NCBI GenBank assembly: GCA_030647265.1
Contig: JAUSJM010000034.1
Coordinates: 1 to 58,016, forward strand
Direction of reading: 5' to 3'
From: a bacterium
Lineage (GTDB): Bacteria > Patescibacteriota > Microgenomatia > Daviesbacterales > UBA10151
DNA length: 58,016 bases
Below are positions 11,299-57,785 of the stretch, piece after piece. The notes under the pieces are model-generated. The model worked only from the letters and a program-made list of their open reading frames with translations, was not told the DNA's origin and did no database searches. Numbering within the stretch: the stretch's first letter is position 1; each line of letters starts with the position of its first letter. A program made the position numbers and the translations under genes.

Positions 11299-11725
11299 GC
11301 TGTTAAAGGTAACGGGGAAAACAAAAAAAAGACTGGGACGGGGTTTAGGATCGGGGAAAGGTAAAACTGCTACTCGGGGAACCAAGGGCCAGAAAGCTCG
11401 GGAGAAGGTGGCAATAGGGTTTATCGGGGGCACCCTGCCTTTATACAAAAAGATCCCTTATCGCCGTGGTTTAGGTAATCCTAAACGGAGTCGAAAGATG
11501 GTTCCTCTGCCTCTTGCCAAGCTTGGCGGTTTTAAATCTCAATCCAGTATTGATTTGCAGGCTTTGATTGAAAAGGGGCTGGTTGGTGAAAAAGAAGCCC
11601 GCTTTAGGGGGGTAAAGGTTGTTAATGGCGGAGAAATAACTGTGGCCTTAAAGGTTAATCTTCCTGTGACTACTGCCGCCGCTTTAAAGATTGTCAAAGC
11701 AGGAGGAACAATTATCCGTGGCTAG
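11285..11725 (+). CDS. rplO: 50S ribosomal protein uL15
   Basis: [39 protein letters not shown] is the canonical uL15 N-terminus. I prefer ATG 11285 over the track's 11225, which lies inside rpsE. Confidence 0.92.
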
Positions 11726-13004
11726 CCTACTTGCTCCGCTTTTAGGGGCTTTCAAGATTCCCGACTTACGCCGCAAAATTATTATCACCGCCGTAGTTAT
11801 TGTAATTTACCGCATCGCCGCCCATATTCCTGTAGGAGGAGTTGATTTAGCCGCTTTAAAATCTCTTTTCGAAAGTAACCAATTTTTAGGGCTGCTGGAT
11901 ATTTTTTCCGGCGGTACTTTAGGAAACTTTTCTATTATATCTTTGGGGTTAAATCCTTACATCAATGCCTCCATTATTATGCAGCTTTTAACGATGGTTT
12001 TCCCCTCCCTGGAAGCCCTTTCTAAAGAAGGGGAATTTGGGAGGCAGAAAATTAACCAATATACAAGATATCTGACAGTTCCTTTGGCTGTTCTGCAATC
12101 AGTGGGAATGTTTACTCTCTTGAAAAACCAGGGCATTGTTCCTCAGGCTATTCCCCTTAGTATCCTGGCTATTATTGTTGCTATGACAGCGGGGACGATC
12201 TTTGCCATGTGGTTGGGAGAGTTGATTACTGAGTATGGAGTAGGCAACGGTATCTCTTTGCTTATCTTTGCCGGCATTGTAGCTCAGGCGCCGGTCGCTT
12301 TTACCCAGACCATCTCTATTGCCGATCAACAGCAGATATTAAACTTATTGCTTTTTGGCGCCCTGGGTTTAGCTATTACTGCGGGTATCGTCTTTATAAA
12401 CGAAGGCAGGAGGCAGATTATGGTCCAGTATGCCCGGAGATTTCTGGGAGGCAGGGAGGTGGGAGGATCGTCTACTTACTTACCACTCCGAGTTAATCAA
12501 GCAGGGGTAATACCTATAATCTTTGCCGTTTCTTTGGTACTTATTCCCTCCTTTGCCGGTCAATATTTGTCTTCGGTAAACCAACCGATGCTGCAGTCAG
12601 TAGGCCGATGGTTTTTGACTTACTTTACGGTTAACTCCTGGGCCTATAATCTAACCTACTTTATCTTGGTTATCGGTTTTACCTACTTTTACACGGCGGT
12701 GGTTTTTAATCCCGGTAAAATTTCCGAAGAGATTAAAAAATCCGGAGCTTTTATTCCCGGTATTAGGCCGGGGACAGCCACTGCTGCATATTTAAACTAT
12801 ATTTTGCTCCGAATTACCTTGGCAGGGGCGGTCTTTTTGGGCTTAGTGGCCATCTTGCCTTCCATTGTTTCCCAGATGACGGGGGTTACCACTCTAGCTA
12901 TCGGAGGCACCGGGCTATTGATTGTGGTCTCAGTTATTTTAGATACCGCCAAACAGTTTGAGAGCAGATTGGTGGAAAGAAATTACGAGAGGTTTTTAAC
13001 TTAA
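11718..13004 (+). CDS. secY: preprotein translocase subunit SecY
   Basis: Polytopic membrane ORF between rplO and adk. I prefer GTG 11718, which follows AGGAGG (11701-11706), over the track's TTG 11691. Confidence 0.93.
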
Positions 13005-31831: not shown

Positions 31832-33838
31832 CTAAGCTGCTAATTGGTATGTAAAAAGAGGAGATAGTTGCCCATGATTAGCAGTTTCACCTTGTTCCCC
31901 AGAAGGAACAAACCATCCTTGAGGTCCTTGGTATGGATGAGTGTGAGTAAAATGGTTTGTAACTTTAGCGAGATCTTCTCTTGTAATATTGTAATTAATA
32001 TCAACAGAATGAGTTGACGAGATGGTTACTAAGTTATTTTTCAGCCATTCCTCTATGTTAGTAATGCCCCAATGAGGATCTTGGGCCAGATCGTTTCTAA
32101 TAAAGTTTTCCACATCTTCCCTTAAATCTTCTCTTACTACTACAAGGAACGGTTCTTGAGTTAAATTGACAGCAAAACCAGGGGTTTGGGGATTGTTATG
32201 AGAGTATTTTTTATCAAACAAGTGCCATCCATCTTGACTCATAAATTGAGATTGGGTAAATAAAGAACCTTTATTAAATGCCAAAGTAACACCTTGAAAA
32301 TACATATAAGGACTATTTTCTGAAAAACATACTTGATGAGCTTCTTGATCAGGAGGCTTCTTATATATAGCTTTAGCTATCTTTTCATATTCGCTCTTGC
32401 TAACCCTTTTTGTGTGTCCCCATGCATCTGTCATAATTACGTAATCCTTGCCCACCTTTACTAAACCGCTGCTAAAAACCGCTTCTCCATAATTATCTAT
32501 CTGGTATTGCTTAGAAGCCAAGACCTTTCTTCTTAGAATAGATTTAATAACGTCAATTGGTCCTGAATGAAAAAGAAGATCTTGAGAAGTAGCTAACTCA
32601 GTATCTAATTTTTCTTGATTGGTGCCAATGATATCGATGCTCGCCATTTTTTGAACTGCTGCTGAAAGCCAGGAATGTTGACCTTGCGGATTTAATTCTC
32701 GGATCTTTTCTGCTAACTTTGCAGCTAAGTCAAGATATTCCTGAGATAGAGACGCGCCTTGTAAAACATCTGCTGGCTCTCCAGGGTTTTTTATAGGTAG
32801 ACTACTTTCTGAAATATTATCAGCTAGTTTGCAGACTCTATCTGTCACTAGATCTCGATATTGTTTAATATGGTTCATATAACCATCGACAGTGCCTAAG
32901 AATCTCCGATTGCTATCTTCATGTAGATGTTGGGTAATTTCTACTTCTCTAATCCAATTCTCTCCATCTAGATAACCTGTCATAAAGGAGGAGGGATGTG
33001 TTGGAGTTAATGATGCTTTATAAGTTTTAAACCATTCTTGGCATTTTGATAAATAGTAAGTATATGAAGCGCTTTGTCTAGCAAGTCCTTTCGAGGTGTC
33101 AAAAAAAGAGGATAAGGCATTTGCTACTATTGTTGCTCGTTCAGCTTCTGGTGCACTTAAAGCCTCATGCAGTACCTGCATTCCAGAAACACTATAATTT
33201 GGTTTAAAACTGGGATCCCTAAAACCGAGATTAAGAAGATCACCAACCCTTTCACTAAGTAACTGATTCATCCTTGCCATAAACACCTCTTTTCCCTGCA
33301 AGTAATCCTTGGAGGGTACTAAAGTTTTAACTCTTTTAACTAAACCCCTAATTCCTGGTGCATGACCAAACTTCTGGACTTCTTCTTCTGTGAACCTTCC
33401 TTCCGTATATGGAGTTTGAGTGAATGGATTAGGGGTATTTCTCAATTCAGGGGCGTCTTGACCTTTAGTAAGTTTATTATAAGCCTTTTGTAGAAGCCTA
33501 ACCTCTCTTTTTACAACCTCAACTAGTTTATCTTGTTTTTCCTTATCTTCAGGACTTACATTCTCAGCTAGTCGGTGAACCTCGTCTTTGTCTACTTGTT
33601 TGTTCTGAGCTGAAGCAGTAACTTTTATCACACCATCAACGATAGTCTCAATTACTTGGCCGTTTGCTCTTGCAGCTTTGTAGGTGTCTTTAATTACATA
33701 TCTTGATTTTTCAGGGAATTGATCTATCTGAGGTCGTTGAGAGTGTCCGACTATTTCTTTATTTTCCTGCTTCCTGTCGACTTCTCGATTTTTCTGGCCA
33801 TCAGTATGATCTTCCCCGGCGTCAGTAAACTCTTGCAT
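31832..33838 (-). CDS. large orphan protein (668 aa), no recognisable domain, no signal peptide or TM
   Basis: Long uninterrupted ORF convergent with gpmA (4-nt gap) and 59 nt downstream of the ldhA-like gene. No motif I can assign. Confidence 0.6.
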   Translation of the reverse strand: MQEFTDAGEDHTDGQKNREVDRKQENKEIVGHSQRPQIDQFPEKSRYVIKDTYKAARANGQVIETIVDGVIKVTASAQNKQVDKDEVHRLAENVSPEDKEKQDKLVEVVKREVRLLQKAYNKLTKGQDAPELRNTPNPFTQTPYTEGRFTEEEVQKFGHAPGIRGLVKRVKTLVPSKDYLQGKEVFMARMNQLLSERVGDLLNLGFRDPSFKPNYSVSGMQVLHEALSAPEAERATIVANALSSFFDTSKGLARQSASYTYYLSKCQEWFKTYKASLTPTHPSSFMTGYLDGENWIREVEITQHLHEDSNRRFLGTVDGYMNHIKQYRDLVTDRVCKLADNISESSLPIKNPGEPADVLQGASLSQEYLDLAAKLAEKIRELNPQGQHSWLSAAVQKMASIDIIGTNQEKLDTELATSQDLLFHSGPIDVIKSILRRKVLASKQYQIDNYGEAVFSSGLVKVGKDYVIMTDAWGHTKRVSKSEYEKIAKAIYKKPPDQEAHQVCFSENSPYMYFQGVTLAFNKGSLFTQSQFMSQDGWHLFDKKYSHNNPQTPGFAVNLTQEPFLVVVREDLREDVENFIRNDLAQDPHWGITNIEEWLKNNLVTISSTHSVDINYNITREDLAKVTNHFTHTHPYQGPQGWFVPSGEQGETANHGQLSPLFTYQLAA

Positions 33839-38427: not shown

Positions 38428-39003
38428 ATGAATGATGATGTAACTATAATTCCACCTGCTCCTGTTTCTGATAACAACAGCAGTATTACTCCTATAACTT
38501 CCAATACCACTCAGCATGAGATGGAAATTATTACTGTCAATGAAGTAACAGCAGGAAACCGCCGTCAGGCAGAAGCGACCCTCAGAGCTTTGGCGGAGGC
38601 AGGTTTGGATCTAGAGCTGGCAGCTAAAGGTTTAGAAGAAGGTCATGGAAATACTGTTAATAAGATGATCACTAACCAAAGATTTATTGATATGGAAAAT
38701 AAGGTAGGAGGTATGGCAGTCTCCCAAAATTCGGTGGCTGCCTGGCAGCTGGAAGCCAAAAAAGTTTTAGGGTCAGGAAATGTTCAGTCAGAAAACACTG
38801 GTAACCCTGGATTATTAATTTATCAGGGAGTGGGGACTGAGATAGAAAAGATGGAAGATTTAAGAGAAGAGATTGGTAGCAGGAGAATTAAGATGGTGGT
38901 AGTTATGGGAACCAAAGTAGCAGGGGAGATAGAAGCTTCTAAAGAAGATCCAAGCTTACCCTCTGCAAGTTCAAGTGGTAAAATACTAAGTTACGGGGAT
39001 TAG
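38428..39003 (+). CDS. hypothetical protein (191 aa)
   Basis: ORF with no recognisable domain. Its last 10 nt overlap tRNA-Pro. Confidence 0.4.
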   Translation: MNDDVTIIPPAPVSDNNSSITPITSNTTQHEMEIITVNEVTAGNRRQAEATLRALAEAGLDLELAAKGLEEGHGNTVNKMITNQRFIDMENKVGGMAVSQNSVAAWQLEAKKVLGSGNVQSENTGNPGLLIYQGVGTEIEKMEDLREEIGSRRIKMVVVMGTKVAGEIEASKEDPSLPSASSSGKILSYGD

Positions 39004-39065
39004 TTCATCGGCAGAACGCCGGGCTGGGGGTCCGGATGTAGGGAGTTCAATTCTCCCATCCCCGA
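38994..39065 (+). tRNA. tRNA-Pro (anticodon GGG)
   Basis: Hand-folded cloverleaf: acceptor cggggat/atccccg, D arm gttc-atcggca-gaac, anticodon arm ccggg-ctgggGg-tccgg (U33, GGG, G37). Variable loop atgta, T arm gggag-ttcaatt-ctccc, discriminator A. CCA is not encoded. Confidence 0.85.
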
Positions 39066-51926: not shown

Positions 51927-52054
51927 GGCTTTTTAAGCTCATTTGAGCCTAACACGATCAGTTGTGCCTGTCAAGCATGACTTATCTTGTGAAGTTTTCC
52001 CTCTCTTCTCGTTGACAAAGCCTAAACTACTTTTGTATAGTGAAAGAGTAATTT

Positions 52055-52492
52055 ATGTATCCAGATGGATTAAACGGAGTCTTTTTGGTTTGGGGGGCGG
52101 TAAGTACTATTTGGATCATTATTTTAACAGTCCTGCTTTGGAAACAGAGCTCCGATTTTAAGAAGCTTTTTCCCAAAGAAGGACAAAATTTTCGGGATAA
52201 GTTAAAAGAGGTTCTATCTGAAGTAGAAGGTTTGGAAGAGTTTAAAGTAAGGTGCTTGGGAAATTTACAAAAAGTGTTCTTGAAAAGGTATAACCCTTAT
52301 CAAGATACAGGAGGAGACCAAAGTTTTTCTTTGGCTCTGTTAAATGGAAGAGGAGACGGGGTAGTGGTGACCAGCCTTCATTCCCGGGCCGGGACCAGGG
52401 TTTTTGCTAAAGGGGTGAAGGAAGGAATGGAGGCTCAGGTGCAGTTCTCTCAGGAAGAAAAAGAGGTTGTCAGACGGGCCATGGGCCAGTAG
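52055..52492 (+). CDS. DUF4446-family protein
   Basis: 145 aa with an N-terminal TM helix and RYNPYQDTGGDQSFSLALLNGRGDGVVVTSLHSR. Confidence 0.6.
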   Translation: MYPDGLNGVFLVWGAVSTIWIIILTVLLWKQSSDFKKLFPKEGQNFRDKLKEVLSEVEGLEEFKVRCLGNLQKVFLKRYNPYQDTGGDQSFSLALLNGRGDGVVVTSLHSRAGTRVFAKGVKEGMEAQVQFSQEEKEVVRRAMGQ

Positions 52493-52504
52493 GAATAATT
52501 TAAG

Positions 52505-53698
52505 ATGCTGAGTGTCTTTAATAATTTAACACTGCTGCAAAAAAGTTTATTAACTTCTATTTTGGCAGTGGTGTCATTTATAACCTTCGCCGGAGCTTCT
52601 TATTCATTTTTTTCCAAAACAGCTGGTACCGGTATTAGCAGCGACCTTACCACCTCTTTGCCTAAAGCAGACGGCATTTTTGTGGAAGATCCCAAGGAAC
52701 CAAAGACGGCAAGCTGCCCTCTGAACGGTGAGATGCACACCAAAAAGGTGGGGGATTTATGGGATGCTAAGTTACCCTTGGCGGTGATGATTGAAAATCA
52801 TACTGAAGCTCGCCCCCAATCCGGTCTCTCTTCGGCTGATGTGGTGTATGAGGCGGTGGCGGAAGGGGGGATCACCCGTTTTATGGCCTTTTTCCTTTGT
52901 AATCCTTCCGATGTTCAGGTAGGACCGGTGAGGTCTGCCCGCACTTACTTTTTAGACTGGCTCTCGGAATACAACGCTTTATATGCCCATGTGGGGGGAG
53001 CAAATTCTCCCGGTCCGGCTAATGCCCTGGGGCAAATTATCAAGTACGGTATTATGGACTTGAATCAGTTTGGTATCGGTTTCCCCACCTTCTGGCGTGA
53101 TTACCAACGCTTAGGTCATCCTGTAGCTACGGAACACACTATGTATTCTACTACTCAAAAGCTTTTGGCAGCGGGAGCAAAAAGAGGTTGGACGGTAACC
53201 TTGGAAGATGGGAAAAAGTGGACAGATGAATTTATTTCCTGGAAATTTAAAGACGATGCTCCCGGCAAGCCCCAACAGGGAAGTGGTATTACACTGGCTG
53301 ACAAAATCAATGTGGAATTTTGGCAGGGATATTCCGGTTACGGAGTGACTTGGAACTATGATGTTACTTGCAACTGTTACAAGAGGCTTAACGGTGGTGC
53401 ACCTCATCTGGATTTGGATAATAATCATCAGCTTGCCGCTAAAAACGTGGTAGTCCAGTTTGAAAGGGAATCCCGGGCCAACGATGGTTACGAAGGTAAT
53501 GTCCATCTGATCTATAAAACTATCGGTGAGGGCAAGGCGCTATTTTTCATCGACGGAAAGGCAATTGAAGGTAAATGGAGTAAAGCTTCCCGAGTGGCTC
53601 GGACAAAGTACACCGACAGTAAGGGGCAGGAAATTGCCTTTGACCGAGGCCGAATTTGGATTCAAACTGTCCCAGAAGGGTCGAATGTAAGTTATTAA
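52505..53698 (+). CDS. DUF3048-domain secreted or anchored protein (YerB-like)
   Basis: 397 aa with an N-terminal TM/signal anchor and PLAVMIENHTEARPQSGLSSADVVYEAVAEGGITRFMAFF. Confidence 0.7.
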   Translation: MLSVFNNLTLLQKSLLTSILAVVSFITFAGASYSFFSKTAGTGISSDLTTSLPKADGIFVEDPKEPKTASCPLNGEMHTKKVGDLWDAKLPLAVMIENHTEARPQSGLSSADVVYEAVAEGGITRFMAFFLCNPSDVQVGPVRSARTYFLDWLSEYNALYAHVGGANSPGPANALGQIIKYGIMDLNQFGIGFPTFWRDYQRLGHPVATEHTMYSTTQKLLAAGAKRGWTVTLEDGKKWTDEFISWKFKDDAPGKPQQGSGITLADKINVEFWQGYSGYGVTWNYDVTCNCYKRLNGGAPHLDLDNNHQLAAKNVVVQFERESRANDGYEGNVHLIYKTIGEGKALFFIDGKAIEGKWSKASRVARTKYTDSKGQEIAFDRGRIWIQTVPEGSNVSY

Positions 53699-53742
53699 GC
53701 TTATTTCTGCCTGGCTTATTTTCTGCCCGGAAAGGAGGGACA

Positions 53743-54327
53743 ATGGAAGAGCTTTTTGTTTCGCGTGTTCGGGTTAAACTTCTTGAACTTTTTTTAACTA
53801 CTCAGGAACCACTGTTGCATGTTAGAGAGATCGTTCGCCGTGTTAAAGAAGAAATTAACGCTGTAAGGAGAGAACTTTTAAGAATGGAAAAGTACGGTTT
53901 AGTCACTTCTGAATGGAGAGCCAACCGCCGCCTGTACCATTTCCGCCGTGACTACATCTTTTATCCGCAGCTTTTGGGGTTGGTGGCAAAATCAACCGGT
54001 TTAGGAGGAGCGATTATTAGAAACCGCGGCCGTTTAGGAAAAATTAAGTACGCCATGATCTCTACCCGTTACGTTCATCACGCCCCGGCAGGAGCGGATG
54101 ATGTTGATTTGTTGGTGGTGGGGCAGATTATTTTGCCCGAGCTGCAGGCACTGGTAGCTGATGAGCAGGCCAAAAGGGAGACTGAGATCAACTACTCTTT
54201 TATGGATGAACCGGAGTTTCAATTTCGGGTTAAAAGACGTGATCCTTTCATCTTGAGAGTGCTTACTCAGCCTAAAATTATGCTTTTGGGTGACGAGGAA
54301 GAGATGCTCAAAGGAGTTGCCATTTAA
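53743..54327 (+). CDS. winged-helix (ArsR-like) regulator with a nucleotidyltransferase-like C-terminal half
   Basis: ATG 53743 follows AAAGGAGGG. Contains VRVKLLELFL...LHVREIVRRV..INAVRRELLRMEKYGLV and DVDLLVVG. Confidence 0.55.
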   Translation: MEELFVSRVRVKLLELFLTTQEPLLHVREIVRRVKEEINAVRRELLRMEKYGLVTSEWRANRRLYHFRRDYIFYPQLLGLVAKSTGLGGAIIRNRGRLGKIKYAMISTRYVHHAPAGADDVDLLVVGQIILPELQALVADEQAKRETEINYSFMDEPEFQFRVKRRDPFILRVLTQPKIMLLGDEEEMLKGVAI

Positions 54328-54332
54328 CCCTC

Positions 54333-55697
54333 ATGAACCGGCGGTTTGTTTTGTGGATCATTATTGTTTTGACGATGCTCTCTTTGTGGGTCAATTTACC
54401 CTCCACCAAAGAGTTTAACTTAAGCCTTTTAAAATCAGGTAAACTTGGGCTCAAAATTTTAGGATATAAGCTGAATTTGGATTTTTTAGCTCCTGCTAAC
54501 ATCAGCGGTAAATTCCCTCTTCATTTAGGTTTGGATTTACAGGGAGGGTCGGAGTTAACCCTGCAAACCGATATGAGCAAGATTAACCCGAGTGACCGGG
54601 ACACGGCTTTAGAGTCCGCCCGGCAGGTTATTGAAAGAAGGGTCAATTTGTACGGGGTTTCCGAAAGCTTGGTTCAGTCTTCCAAACTGGGAGACCGGAG
54701 GCGGATTTTAGTGGAACTTCCGGGGGTTCGGGATGCTTCAGCAGCAGCCAATTTAGTGGGGAAAACCGCCCAGCTGGAATTTCGGGAGATACCTGCTTCT
54801 CCTTCTGCCGAAGCCTCAGCCTCGGCTTTGTCCCAACTTATGGAAGCAAAACCAACGGGCTTGACCGGAGCGGATTTAAAAAAAGCCTCCGTGACTTTCG
54901 GGAGCGGGGGTAAAAACGCCGGGCCGGAAGTATCCATCCAGTTTACCGACCAGGGTGCACAAAAATTCGCCGAGATTACTAGAAAGAACGTCGGTAAACC
55001 GTTGCCTATATTCTTGGACGGAGTGCCGGTTAGTGCGCCTGTAGTGCAACAGGAAATTTTGGGAGGTAGTGCAGTAATTACGGGAAACTTTACTACCTCC
55101 CAGGCAAAGGAGTTGGCGATCCAGCTTAACGCCGGAGCCTTGCCGGTACCGATTGAGATTTTACAACAGCGTTCTATCGGTGCCACTTTAGGCGGAGCCT
55201 CGGTACAAAAAAGCTTAACTGCCGGGGTGATCGGTATAGTGGCGGTGATGATTTTTATGGCCTTCTATTACGGAGTTTACGGCTTACTGGCGGATCTGGC
55301 ACTGCTGATTTACTCTTTACTGGTACTGGCTGTTTTTAGGACGGGGTTGTTTATCATCCCGCCGGTGACTTTAACTTTGGCGGGCATTGCCGGGTTTATC
55401 CTTTCTATCGGTATGGCGGTGGATGCCAATATCCTGACTTTCGAAAGAATTAAAGAGGAACTTCGCTCCGGTAAAAGCGGAAAGCTGGCGCTGGAGCATG
55501 GCTTTAACCGGGCCTGGACTTCCATCCGGGATTCTAACATCTCCTCTTTGATTACTGCCGCCATATTGTATATTTTGGGGACTAATGTAGTGCGGGGATT
55601 TGCTCTGACCTTGGCGATCGGGGTTTTAATTTCCATGTTTTCAGCAATCGTTATCACCAGAACTTTAATGAGACAGTTACCGAGGTTTAAAAAATGA
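54333..55697 (+). CDS. secD: protein-export membrane protein SecD
   Basis: 454 aa with an N-terminal TM helix, a periplasmic domain (LGLDLQGGSELTLQ) and a 5-TM C-terminal RND-like half. Confidence 0.92.
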   Translation: MNRRFVLWIIIVLTMLSLWVNLPSTKEFNLSLLKSGKLGLKILGYKLNLDFLAPANISGKFPLHLGLDLQGGSELTLQTDMSKINPSDRDTALESARQVIERRVNLYGVSESLVQSSKLGDRRRILVELPGVRDASAAANLVGKTAQLEFREIPASPSAEASASALSQLMEAKPTGLTGADLKKASVTFGSGGKNAGPEVSIQFTDQGAQKFAEITRKNVGKPLPIFLDGVPVSAPVVQQEILGGSAVITGNFTTSQAKELAIQLNAGALPVPIEILQQRSIGATLGGASVQKSLTAGVIGIVAVMIFMAFYYGVYGLLADLALLIYSLLVLAVFRTGLFIIPPVTLTLAGIAGFILSIGMAVDANILTFERIKEELRSGKSGKLALEHGFNRAWTSIRDSNISSLITAAILYILGTNVVRGFALTLAIGVLISMFSAIVITRTLMRQLPRFKK

Positions 55698-56569
55698 AGT
55701 TTACATCCAAGAATCCCCATTATGAATACCTTCGAAAAAAATGGTTGGGGAAACATAAAGCTGCTTCTGAAAAGCTGCTGACTAATCACGGTGAATCTTT
55801 GCGCCACTTGGCTTTGGGAAGTTTGGGAGGGTTGGTGCTTCTGACGACCCCCGGGATGGCGGGAGCAATTCCCCAAACACAGACCCTTTCGGCAGACGGT
55901 GTTACCTCACATGAGGATAAAAATGCTTTGCTGGCAGCAGCTTTAAAAGATAAAGTTCCCCAGGATATGAGAAAGCTGACTCCCGAAGAGGAGGGGCAAA
56001 TTGGTGAGATTTTATCCCAGGAGCTGGGGGTGAAAGCGACGGCAGAGATAGGAGGTCTCAGATTAAATAGGTCTTACGGTTTGATCGGCGGAGAACAACA
56101 TTTATACCGTTTTCCGGGGGATAATTTATACCGCCACGCAGACAATGCCTCAGATTGGGCGATGTATGGGTCATCGGGTATTGCTCCGGGTCTGGGGGCC
56201 TGGGGGTATTTTGTTTCTAGTGAAGCATCTTTTACTCCCAAAGATAAGGAAAGGGAACGGTATTATTTGGCGGTCCAGACTTTTTTAGCTCCTGGGTTTG
56301 CGGAAAATGTGGGAAAGTACCGCGATTTTTTCAGGTTTCGTAAGATGGTGGTGGTAAACCCCAAAACCGGTCAATCAGTGGTGGCAGTTATCGGAGATGC
56401 CGGGCCGGCGGAGTGGACGGGAAAACACTTGGGGGGTTCACCCGAGGTGATGCAAGCTGTGGGGTTGGCTTCCGGACCTAGGAAGGGGGCAGTGCTATAT
56501 TTTTTTGTGGACGATCCCCAGGACCAAATTCCCTTGGGACCGATTAGGGTAAGGGGAGGACGAAGCTAA
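55694..56569 (+). CDS. membrane-anchored extracytoplasmic protein with an RlpA-like (double-psi beta-barrel) C-terminal region; inserted between secD and secF
   Basis: 291 aa with a TM at about residues 40-58. KMVVVNPKTGQSVVAVIGDAGPAEW...GGSPEVMQAVGL resembles the RlpA/DPBB V.V.N..NG.SV.V.V.DRGP...DLS..A...LG pattern. ATGA overlap with secD. Confidence 0.4.
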   Translation: MKFTSKNPHYEYLRKKWLGKHKAASEKLLTNHGESLRHLALGSLGGLVLLTTPGMAGAIPQTQTLSADGVTSHEDKNALLAAALKDKVPQDMRKLTPEEEGQIGEILSQELGVKATAEIGGLRLNRSYGLIGGEQHLYRFPGDNLYRHADNASDWAMYGSSGIAPGLGAWGYFVSSEASFTPKDKERERYYLAVQTFLAPGFAENVGKYRDFFRFRKMVVVNPKTGQSVVAVIGDAGPAEWTGKHLGGSPEVMQAVGLASGPRKGAVLYFFVDDPQDQIPLGPIRVRGGRS

Positions 56570-56901
56570 TGGCTCACTTTTATTCACATCTGATCAAAAT
56601 AGAAACATTAGTTTTAAAACTTGAGGTGCTGGGTTTGGAGAACAAACATAACAGGCATTTGACGAGTTTAGTGGATGACACAATCCACCAGGCGGTTCTG
56701 GAAAGAGTTTTGAGTAAGCTTCCTAAGGAAAAACGGAGGGATTTTTTAGTGCTGGTGGCTCAAAATAGAGACACTATGGAAGTGATGACTTTCTTAAATG
56801 GTAAAATTGACAATGTAGAGAAGGAGATTATGGAAGTAGCCGAAGAGGTCATGAAGGAATTTCTGGCCGATATCGAAGAAGCAGAGAGGTTGAAACTATG
56901 A
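56569..56901 (+). CDS. hypothetical cytoplasmic helical protein (110 aa) between secD and secF
   Basis: ORF with a TAATG overlap upstream and an ATGA overlap with secF. No recognisable domain. Confidence 0.5.
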   Translation: MAHFYSHLIKIETLVLKLEVLGLENKHNRHLTSLVDDTIHQAVLERVLSKLPKEKRRDFLVLVAQNRDTMEVMTFLNGKIDNVEKEIMEVAEEVMKEFLADIEEAERLKL

Positions 56902-57785
56902 CTGATTTAATGGGTAAAAAATGGTGGTTTTTTGGAATCTCTCTGCTAGTCATTTTACCGGGACTGATCTCTTTAGTTTTTCATGGATTAAACTTAGGGA
57001 TAGATTTTATCGGGGGAACACTTTTGGAGTACAAATTTGAAAAGAATTTGGATAGAAACACCATAAAACAAACTTTAATCAGTCATGGGGTGGATGTTTC
57101 CAGTATTACTGACTCCGGACCAACAACCTACATTATTAAAACCAAGCCCCTGCCTGCTCCTAGAATTTCCCAAGTTAAAGATCTTTTAGGTCAACAGTTT
57201 GGTAAGGTGGAAGAGATCAGGGTAGAGAGTGTGGGACCGGTCATTGGTTCAGAAACTACCAAGAATGCCTTCATTGCTTTGATTTTGGCTTCCCTGATGA
57301 TTGTGGTTTACCTGGCTTTAGCTTTCAGAAAAGTACCCCGGCCTGCTTCTTCCTGGAGGTTTGGGGTAACAGCGGTGATAGCATTATTACATGATGTCTT
57401 GGTACTGGCAGGGATTTTTTCCATCTTAGGTTATTTTTGGGGGGTGGAGATAGATGTGCTGTTTGTCACAGCCATGCTGACGGTAATAGGTTTTTCCGTA
57501 CACGATACTATTGTGGTGTTTGACAGAATCAGGGAGAATTTGCCCAAACATCTCTCCAGGAAGTTTTCCGAAGTAGCTAATATCTCGGTTACCCAAACCC
57601 TGGCCAGATCTTTAAACACCTCTTTGACGGTAGTTTTTGTATTATTGGCTTTGCTGCTCTTTGGAGGGGAAACCATCAGGTGGTTTGTAGTAGCATTACT
57701 AGTAGGAATTATCTCCGGAACTTATTCCTCCATTTTCAATGCCACAGCCCTGTTGGATTTATGGGAAGAAAGATTAGGCCACTAA
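56898..57785 (+). CDS. secF: protein-export membrane protein SecF
   Basis: 295 aa with GIDFIGGTLLEY and a 5-TM C-terminal half. Confidence 0.92.
   Translation: MTDLMGKKWWFFGISLLVILPGLISLVFHGLNLGIDFIGGTLLEYKFEKNLDRNTIKQTLISHGVDVSSITDSGPTTYIIKTKPLPAPRISQVKDLLGQQFGKVEEIRVESVGPVIGSETTKNAFIALILASLMIVVYLALAFRKVPRPASSWRFGVTAVIALLHDVLVLAGIFSILGYFWGVEIDVLFVTAMLTVIGFSVHDTIVVFDRIRENLPKHLSRKFSEVANISVTQTLARSLNTSLTVVFVLLALLLFGGETIRWFVVALLVGIISGTYSSIFNATALLDLWEERLGH

What the first reader, a model, noticed from the sequence alone, without database searches (positions are those of the whole stretch)
54333..57785. secD and secF separated by two translationally coupled unknown genes
Seen: four ORFs are chained by overlaps.
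- secD stop / X start: ATGA at 55694-55697.
- X stop / Y start: TAATG at 56567-56571.
- Y stop / secF start: ATGA at 56898-56901.

X (291 aa) has a cytoplasmic N-terminus, one TM helix (about residues 40-58) and an extracytoplasmic domain. The C-terminal part of that domain (KMVVVNPKTGQSVVAVIGDAGPAEW...GGSPEVMQAVGL) resembles RlpA-type double-psi beta-barrel cell-wall-binding or lytic domains. Y (110 aa) is a soluble, acidic, helical protein with no recognisable domain.

Established knowledge: secD and secF are normally adjacent or fused, often preceded by yajC.

Inference: X and Y may be lineage-specific accessory subunits or clients of the SecDF motor, for example coupling export to local wall remodelling. 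That would be an undescribed SecDF-associated module.
Basis: partly seen in the sequence, partly recalled or inferred. Interest (0 to 1): 0.65.

Follow-up and report, generated by a model that had tools for sequence, protein, structure and literature searches.

The report
Conserved gene pair splitting secD and secF
Two unknown genes wedged between secD and secF are a conserved gene pair of the Microgenomates (candidate phyla radiation) bacteria, probably a membrane-anchored cell-wall-type protein and its small cytoplasmic partner; only one lineage carries the pair inside the secDF operon, so it is probably not a dedicated part of the SecDF machine.

Summary
secD (54333-55697), X (55694-56569), Y (56569-56901) and secF (56898-57785) are chained by ATGA/TAATG/ATGA overlaps. 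SecD and SecF are bona fide.

X belongs to an unannotated family with no Pfam or NCBIfam match. It has about 3,000 proteins and relatives in at least 568 species genomes. Within Daviesbacteria it is as conserved as SecD and SecF (median 63% vs 64-65% identity).

All Daviesbacteria-type loci with intact flanks keep secD-X-Y-secF. In every other lineage sampled the X-Y pair sits elsewhere, most often gltX-X-Y-ybeY. In Levybacteria it sits next to secA/YfhO or a NAGPA glycosidase. No secD or secF is nearby in any of these.

In six Daviesbacteria genomes the secD|X junction also holds unrelated genes (GIY-YIG, DinB_2, histidine phosphatase), so the slot tolerates insertions.

X has a basic N-terminus, a Gly-rich hydrophobic segment and a conserved domain. 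The AlphaFold model of that domain gives only weak hits, but they are consistently double-psi beta-barrel folds (RlpA, barwin, kiwellin, GH75, p97-N).

Y is a five-helix, DUF5663-like protein. A small downstream ORF co-occurs with a 35-40-residue N-terminal extension of X.

Best reading: a relocated envelope cassette co-expressed with SecDF, not a SecDF subunit. Function is inferred only.

The parts
52012..52041 (+). Promoter-like site (TTGACA-18-TATAGT, 11/12), 14 nt upstream of the DUF4446 gene. Candidate start of a DUF4446-DUF3048-194aa-secD-X-Y-secF transcription unit.
   Evidence: The total number of promoter-like sites is not above the shuffle expectation, so this is a lead only.
52055..52492 (+). 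DUF4446 protein gene, conserved upstream neighbour in Daviesbacteria.
   Evidence: Pfam PF14584, 3e-27. Present in most Daviesbacteria loci.
52505..53698 (+). DUF3048 (N and C domains) protein gene, conserved upstream neighbour.
   Evidence: Pfam PF11258 at 3e-38 and PF17479 at 1e-26. Median 63% identity across 63 loci.
53740..54327 (+). Conserved 195-aa protein of unknown function directly upstream of secD. It is the most conserved gene of the block (median 73% identity).
   Evidence: The only Pfam signal is a sub-threshold winged-helix-like hit (HVO_A0114, E=0.009).
54333..55697 (+). secD (454 aa).
   Evidence: TIGR01129 at 1e-115, plus SecD_1st, SecDF_P1_head and SecD_SecF_C.
55694..56569 (+). 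X (291 aa): founding-type member of an unannotated Microgenomates protein family.
   Evidence: - About 3,026 homologues.
- 246 clusters at 50% identity.
- At least 568 species genomes.
- No Pfam or NCBIfam match for X, and no Pfam match for 46 diverse relatives.
55694..55804 (+). X residues 1-37: conserved, basic, helical N-terminal extension, predicted cytoplasmic.
   Evidence: - pI 10.1 with 9 K/R.
- Invariant M1, F3, P8, E11, L13, W17 in Daviesbacteria.
- Helix 8-42 in the model.
- Its presence co-occurs with a downstream small ORF.
55805..55867 (+). X residues 38-58: Gly/Ala/Leu-rich hydrophobic segment (LALGSLGGLVLLTTPG), either a signal-anchor or an extended signal peptide.
   Evidence: - KD maximum 1.44.
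- G42 and G45 are invariant.
- An equivalent segment is present in most relatives; one relative (P0218) has a Tat-like RRKFLGKAAAAG instead.
55976..56548 (+). X residues 95-285: conserved domain with a double-psi-beta-barrel-like core. Motifs: EQHLYRYPGD, GLGAWGYF, ERYYLAVQTFLAPGF, RKMVVVNPKTGQSVVAVIGDAGPAEWTGKHLGGSPEVM.
   Evidence: - Alignments.
- Model with pLDDT 71.
- Foldseek hits all to DPBB proteins.
- hhalign places VVNPKTGQSVVAVIGDAGP on RlpA's [18 protein letters not shown].
56569..56901 (+). Y (110 aa): small acidic all-helical protein with no hydrophobic segment, distantly DUF5663-like. Obligate downstream partner gene of X.
   Evidence: - (11/67 relatives hit PF18908, best E 5.6e-6).
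- (the Y HMM hits ORFs downstream of X in non-secDF contexts, E 1e-20 to 1e-26).
- (five helices, pLDDT 71).
56898..57785 (+). secF (295 aa).
   Evidence: TIGR00966 at 4e-87; SecD_SecF_C at 5e-58.

Best explanation
X and Y are a two-gene cassette that is conserved across the Microgenomates (CPR/Patescibacteria) independently of SecDF.

X is most likely a type-II (N-in/C-out) membrane-anchored or exported protein. It has three parts:
- a conserved basic cytoplasmic N-terminal helix;
- a Gly-rich hydrophobic segment;
- an outside domain built around a divergent RlpA/barwin-like double-psi beta-barrel.

That domain probably binds or cleaves a cell-envelope glycan, either peptidoglycan or another wall polymer of the cell itself or of a host.

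Y is a small cytoplasmic helical protein. It probably acts on X's cytoplasmic N-terminal extension, either as a private chaperone/targeting factor or as a regulator.

In the Daviesbacteria lineage the cassette was relocated into the interval between secD and secF. There it is co-transcribed and translationally coupled with them. This gives co-expression with the Sec machinery, but the proteins are not dedicated SecDF subunits.

Shown:
- gene structure and overlaps;
- family conservation;
- lineage-specific placement;
- the X-Y pairing.

Inferred:
- topology;
- DPBB fold;
- glycan-directed activity;
- Y-X interaction.
For: **Cassette independent of SecDF**
- Daviesbacteria-type loci L001-L071 all have secD-X-Y-secF where the flanks exist.
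- Levybacteria loci L072-L084 keep X-Y but have no secD/F within 6 kb.
- Eight loci from other Microgenomates show five different neighbourhoods around X-Y, or around X followed by an unrelated small ORF (L086, L087):
  - PMT|X-Y|FtsX;
  - gltX-X-Y-ybeY/DUF3307;
  - rluB-like..X-Y;
  - PA14-X-Y-GSDH;
  - PeptS11..gltX-X-Y.
- In the 80 metagenome loci of distant relatives, the dominant neighbourhood is aspS-PeptS11-358aa-gltX-X'-[small ORF]-ybeY-dnaX-ybaB-ham1. None has a SecD or SecF hit.

**Insertion-tolerant slot**
- Six Daviesbacteria genomes have a 290-996 nt secD|X gap. In five of them the gap holds unrelated ORFs: GIY-YIG, DinB_2, His_Phos_1 and unknowns.

**Strong selection**
- X has a median 63% identity across 67 loci, against 64% for SecD and 65% for SecF.

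**Export**
- The N-terminus is basic and a hydrophobic segment follows.
- One relative has a Tat-type RRKFLGK signal.

**Fold**
- PDB Foldseek hits are all DPBB proteins: p97-N, kiwellin, GH75 V-Csn, loosenin, PA4485, barwin and a designed DPBB.
- BFVD hits include 'Rare lipoprotein A' at 1.5e-3 (probability 0.96), barwin and RlpA-like DPBB.
- hhalign aligns the NPxxGxxVVxxxxDxGP hairpin with the same motif in E. coli RlpA.

**Envelope neighbours in other lineages**
- NAGPA phosphodiester glycosidase lies directly downstream, with overlapping stops.
- YfhO, DUF2079, PMT and Peptidase_S11 are also found nearby.

**Y-X link**
- The X->Y junction is 20 nt or less in 59/64 loci.
- X' followed by a small ORF (n=43): median 306-315 aa, hydrophobic segment at about residue 57-66.
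- X' followed directly by ybeY (n=33): median 273 aa, hydrophobic segment at about residue 18.
Against: - No significant sequence match to any DPBB family. Pfam DPBB_1, 3D and GH75 are not hit, and hhalign probability against RlpA is only 3-9%.
- No PDB Foldseek hit reaches E<=1e-3.
- The model is of medium confidence, and the loop with the putative active site (residues 237-244) has pLDDT below 50.
- In the HMM alignment to GH75 V-Csn, the position of the universally acidic proton donor (E157) is K244 in X (PMC9485262). Classical DPBB glycosidase chemistry is therefore doubtful.
- The top PDB hits include p97-N, a protein-binding DPBB.
- A distant clade of X relatives has no hydrophobic segment and a degenerate GDxGP motif, so the domain need not always be extracytoplasmic or catalytic.
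- The hydrophobic segment (KD 1.44) is below the usual transmembrane cut-off.
- The link between the N-terminal extension and a small downstream ORF could be a single clade-level event rather than functional coupling.
- Two independent Sec-gene neighbourhoods exist (secD/F in Daviesbacteria; secA within 0-2 genes in 3 Levybacteria loci). This leaves some room for a Sec connection.
Confidence: 0.5

Rival explanations
1. X and Y are lineage-specific accessory subunits or dedicated clients of SecDF in Daviesbacteria. One version: X's Gly-rich transmembrane helix docks onto SecDF and its ectodomain loosens the wall at the export site. Another: Y chaperones X to the translocon.
For: - The four-gene order with overlapping stops and starts is universally kept in Daviesbacteria.
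- X is as conserved as SecD and SecF.
- The hydrophobic segment is unusually conserved and rich in small residues (G42 and G45 invariant), as expected for helix-helix packing.
- In three Levybacteria loci X-Y lies 0-2 genes downstream of secA.
Against: - In every non-Daviesbacteria lineage sampled, the same X-Y pair lies away from secD/secF. This covers 13 Levybacteria loci, 8 other Microgenomates loci and 80 metagenome loci.
- The secD|X junction also carries unrelated cytoplasmic genes in some genomes, so position in this operon is not specific.
- X and Y show no similarity to YajC or any other Sec component.
- No interface prediction was possible.
Confidence: 0.12
2. X is not a wall-glycan enzyme. 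It is a transmembrane sensor or adaptor whose DPBB-like domain binds a protein or peptide ligand, as the p97 N-domain does. Y is its cytoplasmic signalling partner, bound to the N-terminal helix in the manner of an anti-sigma factor and its partner.
For: - The best PDB Foldseek hits are p97/Cdc48 N-domains.
- The canonical acidic proton-donor position appears to be Lys.
- The GDxGP Asp is lost in a distant clade.
- The architecture (short cytoplasmic helix, one transmembrane segment, outside domain, adjacent small cytoplasmic protein) resembles signalling pairs.
- Noise-level hits of Y to sigma region 4 and anti-sigma complexes, and to RskA_N and FliA.
Against: - All Y hits are at noise level (E 0.08 to 10).
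- Y has no recognisable DNA-binding domain.
- E188 is invariant, and E251 and H136 are nearly invariant, across the whole family. This looks more like an active or ligand site for a small or polymeric substrate.
- Neighbours in other lineages are envelope-glycan genes.
Confidence: 0.2
3. X and Y are a sporadic or selfish insertion (mobile cargo) with no conserved cellular role.
For: - The secD|X junction does take up foreign genes, including a GIY-YIG nuclease gene.
- X has a higher G+C (0.50) than the window (0.42).
Against: - X and Y are present in every Daviesbacteria locus and across at least 568 species genomes.
- X is under purifying selection equal to SecD/F.
- There are no phage homologues.
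- secD has a similarly raised G+C (0.48), so composition is not a foreign signature.
Confidence: 0.02

Closest known systems
RlpA (rare lipoprotein A): DPBB lytic transglycosylase / septal peptidoglycan protein (Pfam PF03330 DPBB_1 + SPOR; PMC6895207)
   Same: - An envelope-tethered protein with a DPBB-type domain.
- It shares the beta-hairpin motif N-x-x-N/T-G-x-x-V-V-x-x-I-x-D-x-G-P.
- Phage proteins named 'Rare lipoprotein A' and 'RlpA-like DPBB' are among the best structural matches.
- Both lie close to a Peptidase_S11 (dacA-type) gene in many genomes: E. coli rlpA-dacA, and PeptS11-x-gltX-X in Patescibacteria.
   Different: - No significant sequence match to PF03330.
- No lipobox or Cys and no SPOR domain.
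- X is anchored by an N-terminal hydrophobic segment preceded by a conserved cytoplasmic extension.
- A roughly 100-residue conserved N-terminal half (EQHLYRYPGD, GLGAWGYF) and a helical insertion in the barrel have no counterpart in RlpA.
- X has an obligate small cytoplasmic partner gene.
GH75 chitosanase V-Csn (PDB 7TVL-7TVP; PMC9485262)
   Same: - It is the only solved structure picked up by sequence profile (E about 1).
- It is also the longest Foldseek alignment (about 200 columns).
- It shares the GDxGP....G(E/K)..GS stretch and a DPBB core with extra elements.
   Different: - The match is not significant and disappears with the more diverse profile.
- Of the D-D-D-E active site, only the D148 equivalent (D235) is evident.
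- The proton donor E157 aligns with K244.
Membrane-anchored DPBB/3D-domain muralytic proteins of Firmicutes (e.g. B. subtilis YuiC/YabE; from my own knowledge, not tested here)
   Same: An N-terminal membrane anchor plus an extracytoplasmic DPBB domain, in a monoderm-type envelope.
   Different: - No 3D-domain (PF06725) match.
- No cytoplasmic partner protein is known for those proteins.
YajC, the classical small accessory protein encoded with secDF
   Same: It is encoded in the secDF operon and is a single-pass membrane protein.
   Different: - No sequence similarity.
- X is three times larger, with a large outside domain.
- X-Y occurs without secDF in most lineages.
DUF5663 (PF18908), a family of unknown function
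   Same: Y-family members give sub-threshold to weak hits: 11/67 at E<=0.01, best 5.6e-6. The window's Y gives E=0.048.
   Different: The window's Y scores below the gathering threshold (14.7 vs 23.7 bits). DUF5663 itself has no known function and no literature.
Private export chaperones that bind signal peptides of their neighbours (e.g. Tat REMPs TorD/DmsD/NapD; analogy from my own knowledge)
   Same: A small cytoplasmic protein is encoded next to an exported protein with an unusually long, conserved N-terminal region. The partner is absent when the extension is absent.
   Different: No homology. X's signal is not Tat-type except in one relative. The interaction is untested.

Membership tests
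SecD (TIGR01129) / SecF (TIGR00966) | Score above the curated cut-off of the equivalog models, and the SecD/SecF domain set. | tested here: met
   SecD scores 386.8 bits against a cut-off of 244.4. SecF scores 292.3 bits against a cut-off of 160. The Pfam domains are complete.
RlpA-like DPBB (Pfam PF03330 DPBB_1) | Significant match to the family model. | tested here: not met
   No hit for X, or for 46 diverse relatives, at E<=1. hhalign against E. coli RlpA gives probability 3-9%.
RlpA-like DPBB (Pfam PF03330 DPBB_1) | Six-stranded double-psi beta-barrel fold. | tested here: inconclusive
   - AF2 model: pLDDT 71, pTM 0.67.
- All top Foldseek hits are DPBB proteins, but PDB E-values are 0.05 or worse.
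- The best BFVD hits are 6.8e-4 and 1.5e-3.
RlpA-like DPBB (Pfam PF03330 DPBB_1) | Lytic transglycosylase activity on (denuded) glycan strands and a catalytic Asp. | not testable with these tools
   D235 in GDAGP aligns with the Asp of RlpA's NDRGP. Activity needs biochemistry.
RlpA (whole protein) | [quoted passage not shown] | tested here: not met
   X has no Cys and no SPOR match.
GH75 chitosanase | Four conserved acidic active-site residues (D-D-D-E), including the proton donor equivalent to V-Csn E157 (PMC9485262). | tested here: not met
   In the HMM alignment D235 corresponds to D148, but K244 occupies the E157 position. There is no Pfam GH75 hit, and the match is lost with the diverse profile.
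SecDF accessory subunit (YajC-like or new) | Homology to YajC. | tested here: not met
   No YajC hit in Pfam or NCBIfam for X or Y.
SecDF accessory subunit (YajC-like or new) | Gene association with secD/secF that holds across the lineages carrying the genes. | tested here: not met
   The association holds only in Daviesbacteria. It is absent in 13 Levybacteria loci, 8 other Microgenomates loci and 80 metagenome loci.
SecDF accessory subunit (YajC-like or new) | Physical interface with SecD/SecF. | not testable with these tools
   No multimer prediction was available. It needs AlphaFold-Multimer or co-purification.
DUF5663 (PF18908), for Y | Score above the Pfam gathering threshold (23.7 bits). 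| tested here: inconclusive
   The window's Y scores 14.7 bits, E=0.048. Of its relatives, 11/67 hit at E<=0.01, best 5.6e-6. This makes it a distant relative rather than a clear member.

The most novel reading that the evidence does not exclude
In Daviesbacteria the cassette has been recruited into the Sec pathway. X's conserved Gly-rich transmembrane helix would pack against SecDF. Its DPBB ectodomain would open or bind the wall where proteins emerge, or X would be a privileged SecDF client escorted by Y. That would be a Sec-coupled wall-remodelling module with no described precedent.

A weaker version: X-Y is a new, CPR-wide 'membrane DPBB protein plus cytoplasmic partner' system that transmits information or force across the membrane.
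Probability: 0.1. Interest if true: 0.65.

Novelty: new variant of a known kind. Interest (0 to 1): 0.36.

Why it matters
X defines a large protein family with no Pfam or NCBIfam model. It has about 3,000 sequences at 90% clustering and occurs in at least 568 species genomes. In the reduced genomes of Microgenomates/CPR bacteria it is kept as strictly as SecD and SecF, and a small partner gene usually follows it.

CPR envelope biology, meaning wall growth, division and attachment to hosts, is almost uncharacterised. A conserved, probably surface-exposed DPBB protein is a reasonable candidate for a core wall-remodelling or host-contact factor.

The finding also carries a caution. An unusual, tightly coupled gene order (secD-X-Y-secF) can be a lineage-specific relocation into a permissive operon slot rather than evidence of a shared machine.

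Tried and rejected
- **Y sequence search.** The word-indexed homology search with Y alone found only itself. Y homologues had to be collected from the loci by tblastn/HMM.
- **Locus search with the diverse alignment.** It was repeated with a closer set.
- **Y structure with an alignment.** Y was folded as a single sequence, and Foldseek then gave only noise.
- **Profile searches of the PDB.**
  - The Daviesbacteria profile gave a non-significant V-Csn hit.
  - The diverse profile lost it and hit only low-complexity helices.
  - The Y profile gave nothing meaningful.
- **Pfam and NCBIfam.** Pfam on 46 diverse X relatives found no recurrent family, and DUF7246 at E=0.056 was dismissed. NCBIfam found nothing for X.
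- **Phage genomes.** tblastn of X against phage genomes found no match.
- **Literature.** Searches for secD/secF in CPR, DUF5663, Microgenomates+RlpA and Patescibacteria lytic transglycosylases found nothing on this family or arrangement.
- **Second X copy or gltX/ybeY in the window.** None was found.
- **Horizontal transfer from composition.** Considered and rejected, because secD shares X's raised G+C.

Full report
**Observation**

The junctions read ATGA, TAATG and ATGA.

SecD and SecF are unambiguous:
- SecD matches TIGR01129 at 1e-115.
- SecF matches TIGR00966 at 4e-87.
- Both carry the full Pfam domain sets.

SD-like GAGG/GGAGG/GAGAGG motifs lie 8-14 nt before the X, Y and secF starts, inside the preceding genes. 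Translational coupling is therefore plausible. X and Y have no Pfam or NCBIfam assignment. The only signal is a sub-threshold DUF5663 hit for Y (E=0.048).

**Are X and Y real and conserved?**

X has 3,026 homologues at E<=1e-3 in the 5.8-billion-protein set. The top 120 are 64-76% identical (apart from the query itself), all are 'hypothetical', and those with names are mostly Candidatus Daviesbacteria. An exhaustive HMMER scan of 1.84 billion cluster representatives found 246 clusters at 50% identity. A scan of one genome per GTDB species found at least 568 genomes with a relative (capped).

Across 67 Daviesbacteria-type loci, median identity to the window's proteins is:

| Protein | Median identity |
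|---|---|
| X | 63% |
| SecD | 64% |
| SecF | 65% |
| Y | 36% |

Y evolves fast, and the word-based search found only itself. Even so, a 105-119 aa homologue follows X in every Daviesbacteria and Levybacteria locus. This includes L023, where tblastn missed it but translation shows it.

**Context survey: the key result**

All loci with X at 55% identity or more (L001-L071, Daviesbacteria and unnamed close relatives) carry the block DUF4446-DUF3048-195aa-secD-X-Y-secF. The only exceptions are two loci cut by contig ends.

Junction tightness in 64 loci:

| Junction | 20 nt or less (or overlapping) |
|---|---|
| X->Y | 59/64 |
| Y->secF | 59/64 |
| secD->X | 50/64 |

The next lineage, Levybacteria (L072-L084, X 49-54% identical), keeps X-Y adjacent but has no secD or secF within 6 kb. 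There the pair has two kinds of neighbourhood:
- It is preceded by secA and a YfhO-type membrane protein. In L078 they are directly upstream; in L076 and L077 secA is within two genes.
- It sits in DUF2079 ... dinB(-) ... X-Y-NAGPA, where the phosphodiester glycosidase gene overlaps Y's stop.

Eight further Microgenomates loci, reached through a diverse family profile, show these neighbourhoods:
- PMT(-)|X-Y|FtsX-ABC(-)
- gltX-X-Y-DUF3307
- gltX-X-(small ORF)-ybeY-dnaX
- rluB-like..X-Y
- PA14-X-Y-GSDH
- PeptS11..gltX-X-Y

The Y HMM recognises the downstream ORF in six of these eight loci, with E-values from 1e-20 to 1e-26.

A metagenome scan seeded with the most distant clade returned 80 loci. 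Their dominant arrangement is aspS-Peptidase_S11-358aa-gltX-X'-[small ORF]-ybeY-dnaX-ybaB-ham1. None has a SecD or SecF hit.

The conserved unit is therefore X plus a small downstream gene. Placement between secD and secF is a Daviesbacteria-specific relocation. The gltX...ybeY site is the most widespread location and is plausibly the older one (inference).

**The secD|X junction is permissive**

Six Daviesbacteria genomes have 290-996 nt between secD and X. In five of them the gap holds extra ORFs:
- L016: a 165-aa protein.
- L021: a GIY-YIG nuclease-domain protein and a related DinB_2 protein.
- L017: a 322-aa unknown protein.
- L044: a histidine phosphatase.
- L049: a 108-aa unknown protein.

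Unrelated cytoplasmic genes can thus ride in this operon. This weakens any guilt-by-association argument for X/Y.

**Anatomy of X**

- Residues 1-37 are basic (9 K/R, pI 10.1), helical in the model, and conserved. M1, F3, P8, E11, L13 and W17 are invariant in Daviesbacteria.
- Residues 38-58 are a Gly/Ala/Leu-rich hydrophobic stretch with a KD maximum of 1.44. G42 and G45 are invariant.
- The first 15 residues after the stretch carry no K/R (my own count from the translation). By the positive-inside rule this predicts N-in/C-out (inference).
- Most relatives have an equivalent segment. One relative (P0218) has a Tat-type RRKFLGKAAAAG signal instead, which argues that the domain works outside the cytoplasm.
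- A distant clade has no hydrophobic segment at all, and its GDxGP motif is degenerate. It may be a cytoplasmic or non-catalytic offshoot.
- Residues 95-285 form the conserved core. E188 is invariant in 46 diverse sequences. H136, P141, Y191, R216, K217, N222, G237, P238, S249, P250, E251 and D274 are nearly invariant.

**Fold of X**

The AlphaFold2 model (20-sequence alignment) has pLDDT 71 and pTM 0.67. Confidence is low in the loops at residues 162-168 and 237-244.

Against the PDB, Foldseek finds nothing at E<=1e-3. However, the ranked list consists almost entirely of double-psi beta-barrel proteins:
- p97/Cdc48 N-domain
- kiwellin
- the GH75 chitosanase V-Csn (about 200 aligned columns)
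- loosenin
- PA4485
- barwin
- a designed DPBB

Against the viral structure library, the best hits are:
- a Rhodococcus phage protein (6.8e-4, probability 0.98)
- 'Rare lipoprotein A' (1.5e-3, probability 0.96)
- further RlpA-like and barwin entries

At sequence level only one element is recognisable. hhalign aligns YYLAVQTFLAPGF...VVNPKTGQSVVAVIGDAGPA with E. coli RlpA's [35 protein letters not shown], at 3-9% probability.

A Daviesbacteria-only profile aligns the same stretch with V-Csn's GDVGPSSKIGE-GS, at E about 1. In that alignment D235 matches catalytic D148, but the proton donor E157 is K244. The V-Csn paper states that this position is universally acidic in carbohydrate-active DPBB proteins (PMC9485262).

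Membership of RlpA/DPBB_1 or GH75 is not established, and the chemistry, if any, is probably non-canonical. E188 and E251 are better candidates than the classical pair (inference).

**Anatomy of Y**

Y has 110 aa and pI 5.5, with no hydrophobic segment. Single-sequence AlphaFold predicts five helices with pLDDT 71. There is no meaningful structural or PDB-sequence match. Eleven of 67 family members hit Pfam DUF5663, with a best E-value of 5.6e-6. DUF5663 has no known function and no literature.

**A link between Y and X's N-terminus**

Among the distant loci, two groups differ:

| X' is followed by | n | Median length | Hydrophobic segment at |
|---|---|---|---|
| a small ORF (18 Y-like by iterated HMM, 25 diverse acidic helical ORFs) | 43 | 306-315 aa | about residue 57-66 |
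| ybeY directly | 33 | 273 aa | about residue 18 |

The 35-40-residue cytoplasmic extension and the small partner gene therefore come and go together. This fits Y acting on that extension, as a private chaperone/targeting factor or as a regulator. It could also reflect a single clade-level event, and no interaction test was possible.

**Most likely mechanism**

X-Y is an envelope cassette. X would be exported or anchored with its DPBB-like domain outside, where it binds or cuts a wall glycan.

Neighbours in other lineages fit an envelope role. They include the NAGPA glycosidase, YfhO, DUF2079, PMT-type glycosyltransferases and a DacA-type carboxypeptidase. For comparison, E. coli rlpA sits next to dacA.

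Y would work from the cytoplasmic side on X's N-terminus. In Daviesbacteria the pair is simply expressed from the secDF operon. A good promoter-like site lies before the DUF4446 gene at 52012-52041 (not above chance overall).

My estimates:

| Claim | Estimate |
|---|---|
| The cassette is independent of SecDF | 0.95 |
| N-in/C-out topology | 0.75 |
| DPBB fold | 0.7 |
| Glycan-directed function | 0.45 |
| Y-X interaction | 0.4 |
| Genuine SecDF accessory or coupled role | 0.1 |

**Rival explanations**

- The SecDF-accessory model retains some support. This comes from the strict conservation in Daviesbacteria, the conserved small-residue transmembrane segment, and a second Sec neighbourhood (secA) in some Levybacteria. 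With about seven independent contexts, two Sec neighbourhoods are only marginally unexpected (my rough estimate).
- A sensor/adaptor model (p97-N-like protein binding, Y as transducer) fits the missing proton donor, but it rests on noise-level hits.
- A selfish or sporadic insertion is excluded by the conservation data.

**Comparison with known systems and novelty**

X works most like membrane- or lipid-tethered DPBB wall proteins (RlpA; PMC6895207). It fails the membership tests for that family:
- no PF03330 match;
- no lipobox;
- no SPOR domain.

It is not a GH75 enzyme by active-site criteria, and it is unrelated to YajC.

The combination has not been described in the literature I could search. 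It consists of a conserved cytoplasmic extension, a hydrophobic segment, a divergent DPBB-like domain and an obligate small cytoplasmic partner. I rate it a new variant of a known kind. As a SecDF story it is largely explained away. As an uncharacterised core envelope family of CPR bacteria it has moderate interest.

Noticed in passing
L016:5493-5990, L017:4992-5960, L021:294-1120, L044:1437-1982, L049:5668-5994 (Daviesbacteria loci): In several Daviesbacteria genomes the interval between secD and X carries extra, unrelated genes: a GIY-YIG nuclease-domain protein, DinB_2, a histidine phosphatase and unknowns. The junction behaves as an insertion-tolerant slot in the operon.
   Followed up: partly
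window 53740-54327: The 195-aa protein directly upstream of secD is the most conserved gene of the block (median 73% identity across 63 loci). It has no family assignment, only a sub-threshold winged-helix-like hit (HVO_A0114, E=0.009). It always precedes secD in Daviesbacteria.
   Followed up: partly
L093-L172 (metagenome loci); alignment A6: A distant clade of X relatives lacks any hydrophobic segment and has a degenerate GDxGP motif. It still keeps E188, H136, RK..NP and GGSPE, so it may be a cytoplasmic or non-catalytic offshoot of the family.
   Followed up: partly
L093-L172: X relatives that lack the 35-40-residue N-terminal extension also lack the downstream small ORF, and ybeY follows directly. 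Where a small ORF is present it is often not Y-like but another diverse acidic helical protein. The downstream slot seems to hold fast-evolving partners.
   Followed up: yes
L078:949-7169; L083:5974-8381: In Levybacteria, X-Y lies either directly after secA and a YfhO-type membrane protein, or is followed by a NAGPA (phosphodiester glycosidase) gene that overlaps Y's stop.
   Followed up: partly
window 54333-57785: G+C differs within the four-gene chain. secD is 0.48 and X is 0.50, while Y is 0.39 and secF is 0.42 (window 0.42). This probably reflects amino-acid composition (Gly/Ala/Pro-rich conserved proteins) rather than foreign origin.
   Followed up: no
window 56569-56901: The window's Y is an outlier in its own family. 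It is 28-41% identical to the other 66 aligned members, whereas the alignment as a whole has 55% mean column identity.
   Followed up: no
window 11691-13004; 38994-39065: secY (TTG start in the ORF list, Pfam SecY 2e-106) lies elsewhere in the window. There is a single tRNA at 38994-39065. No other Rfam family reaches threshold in the 58 kb.
   Followed up: no
window 31832-33838 (- strand): A 667-aa ORF with no Pfam match at E<=1e-5.
   Followed up: no
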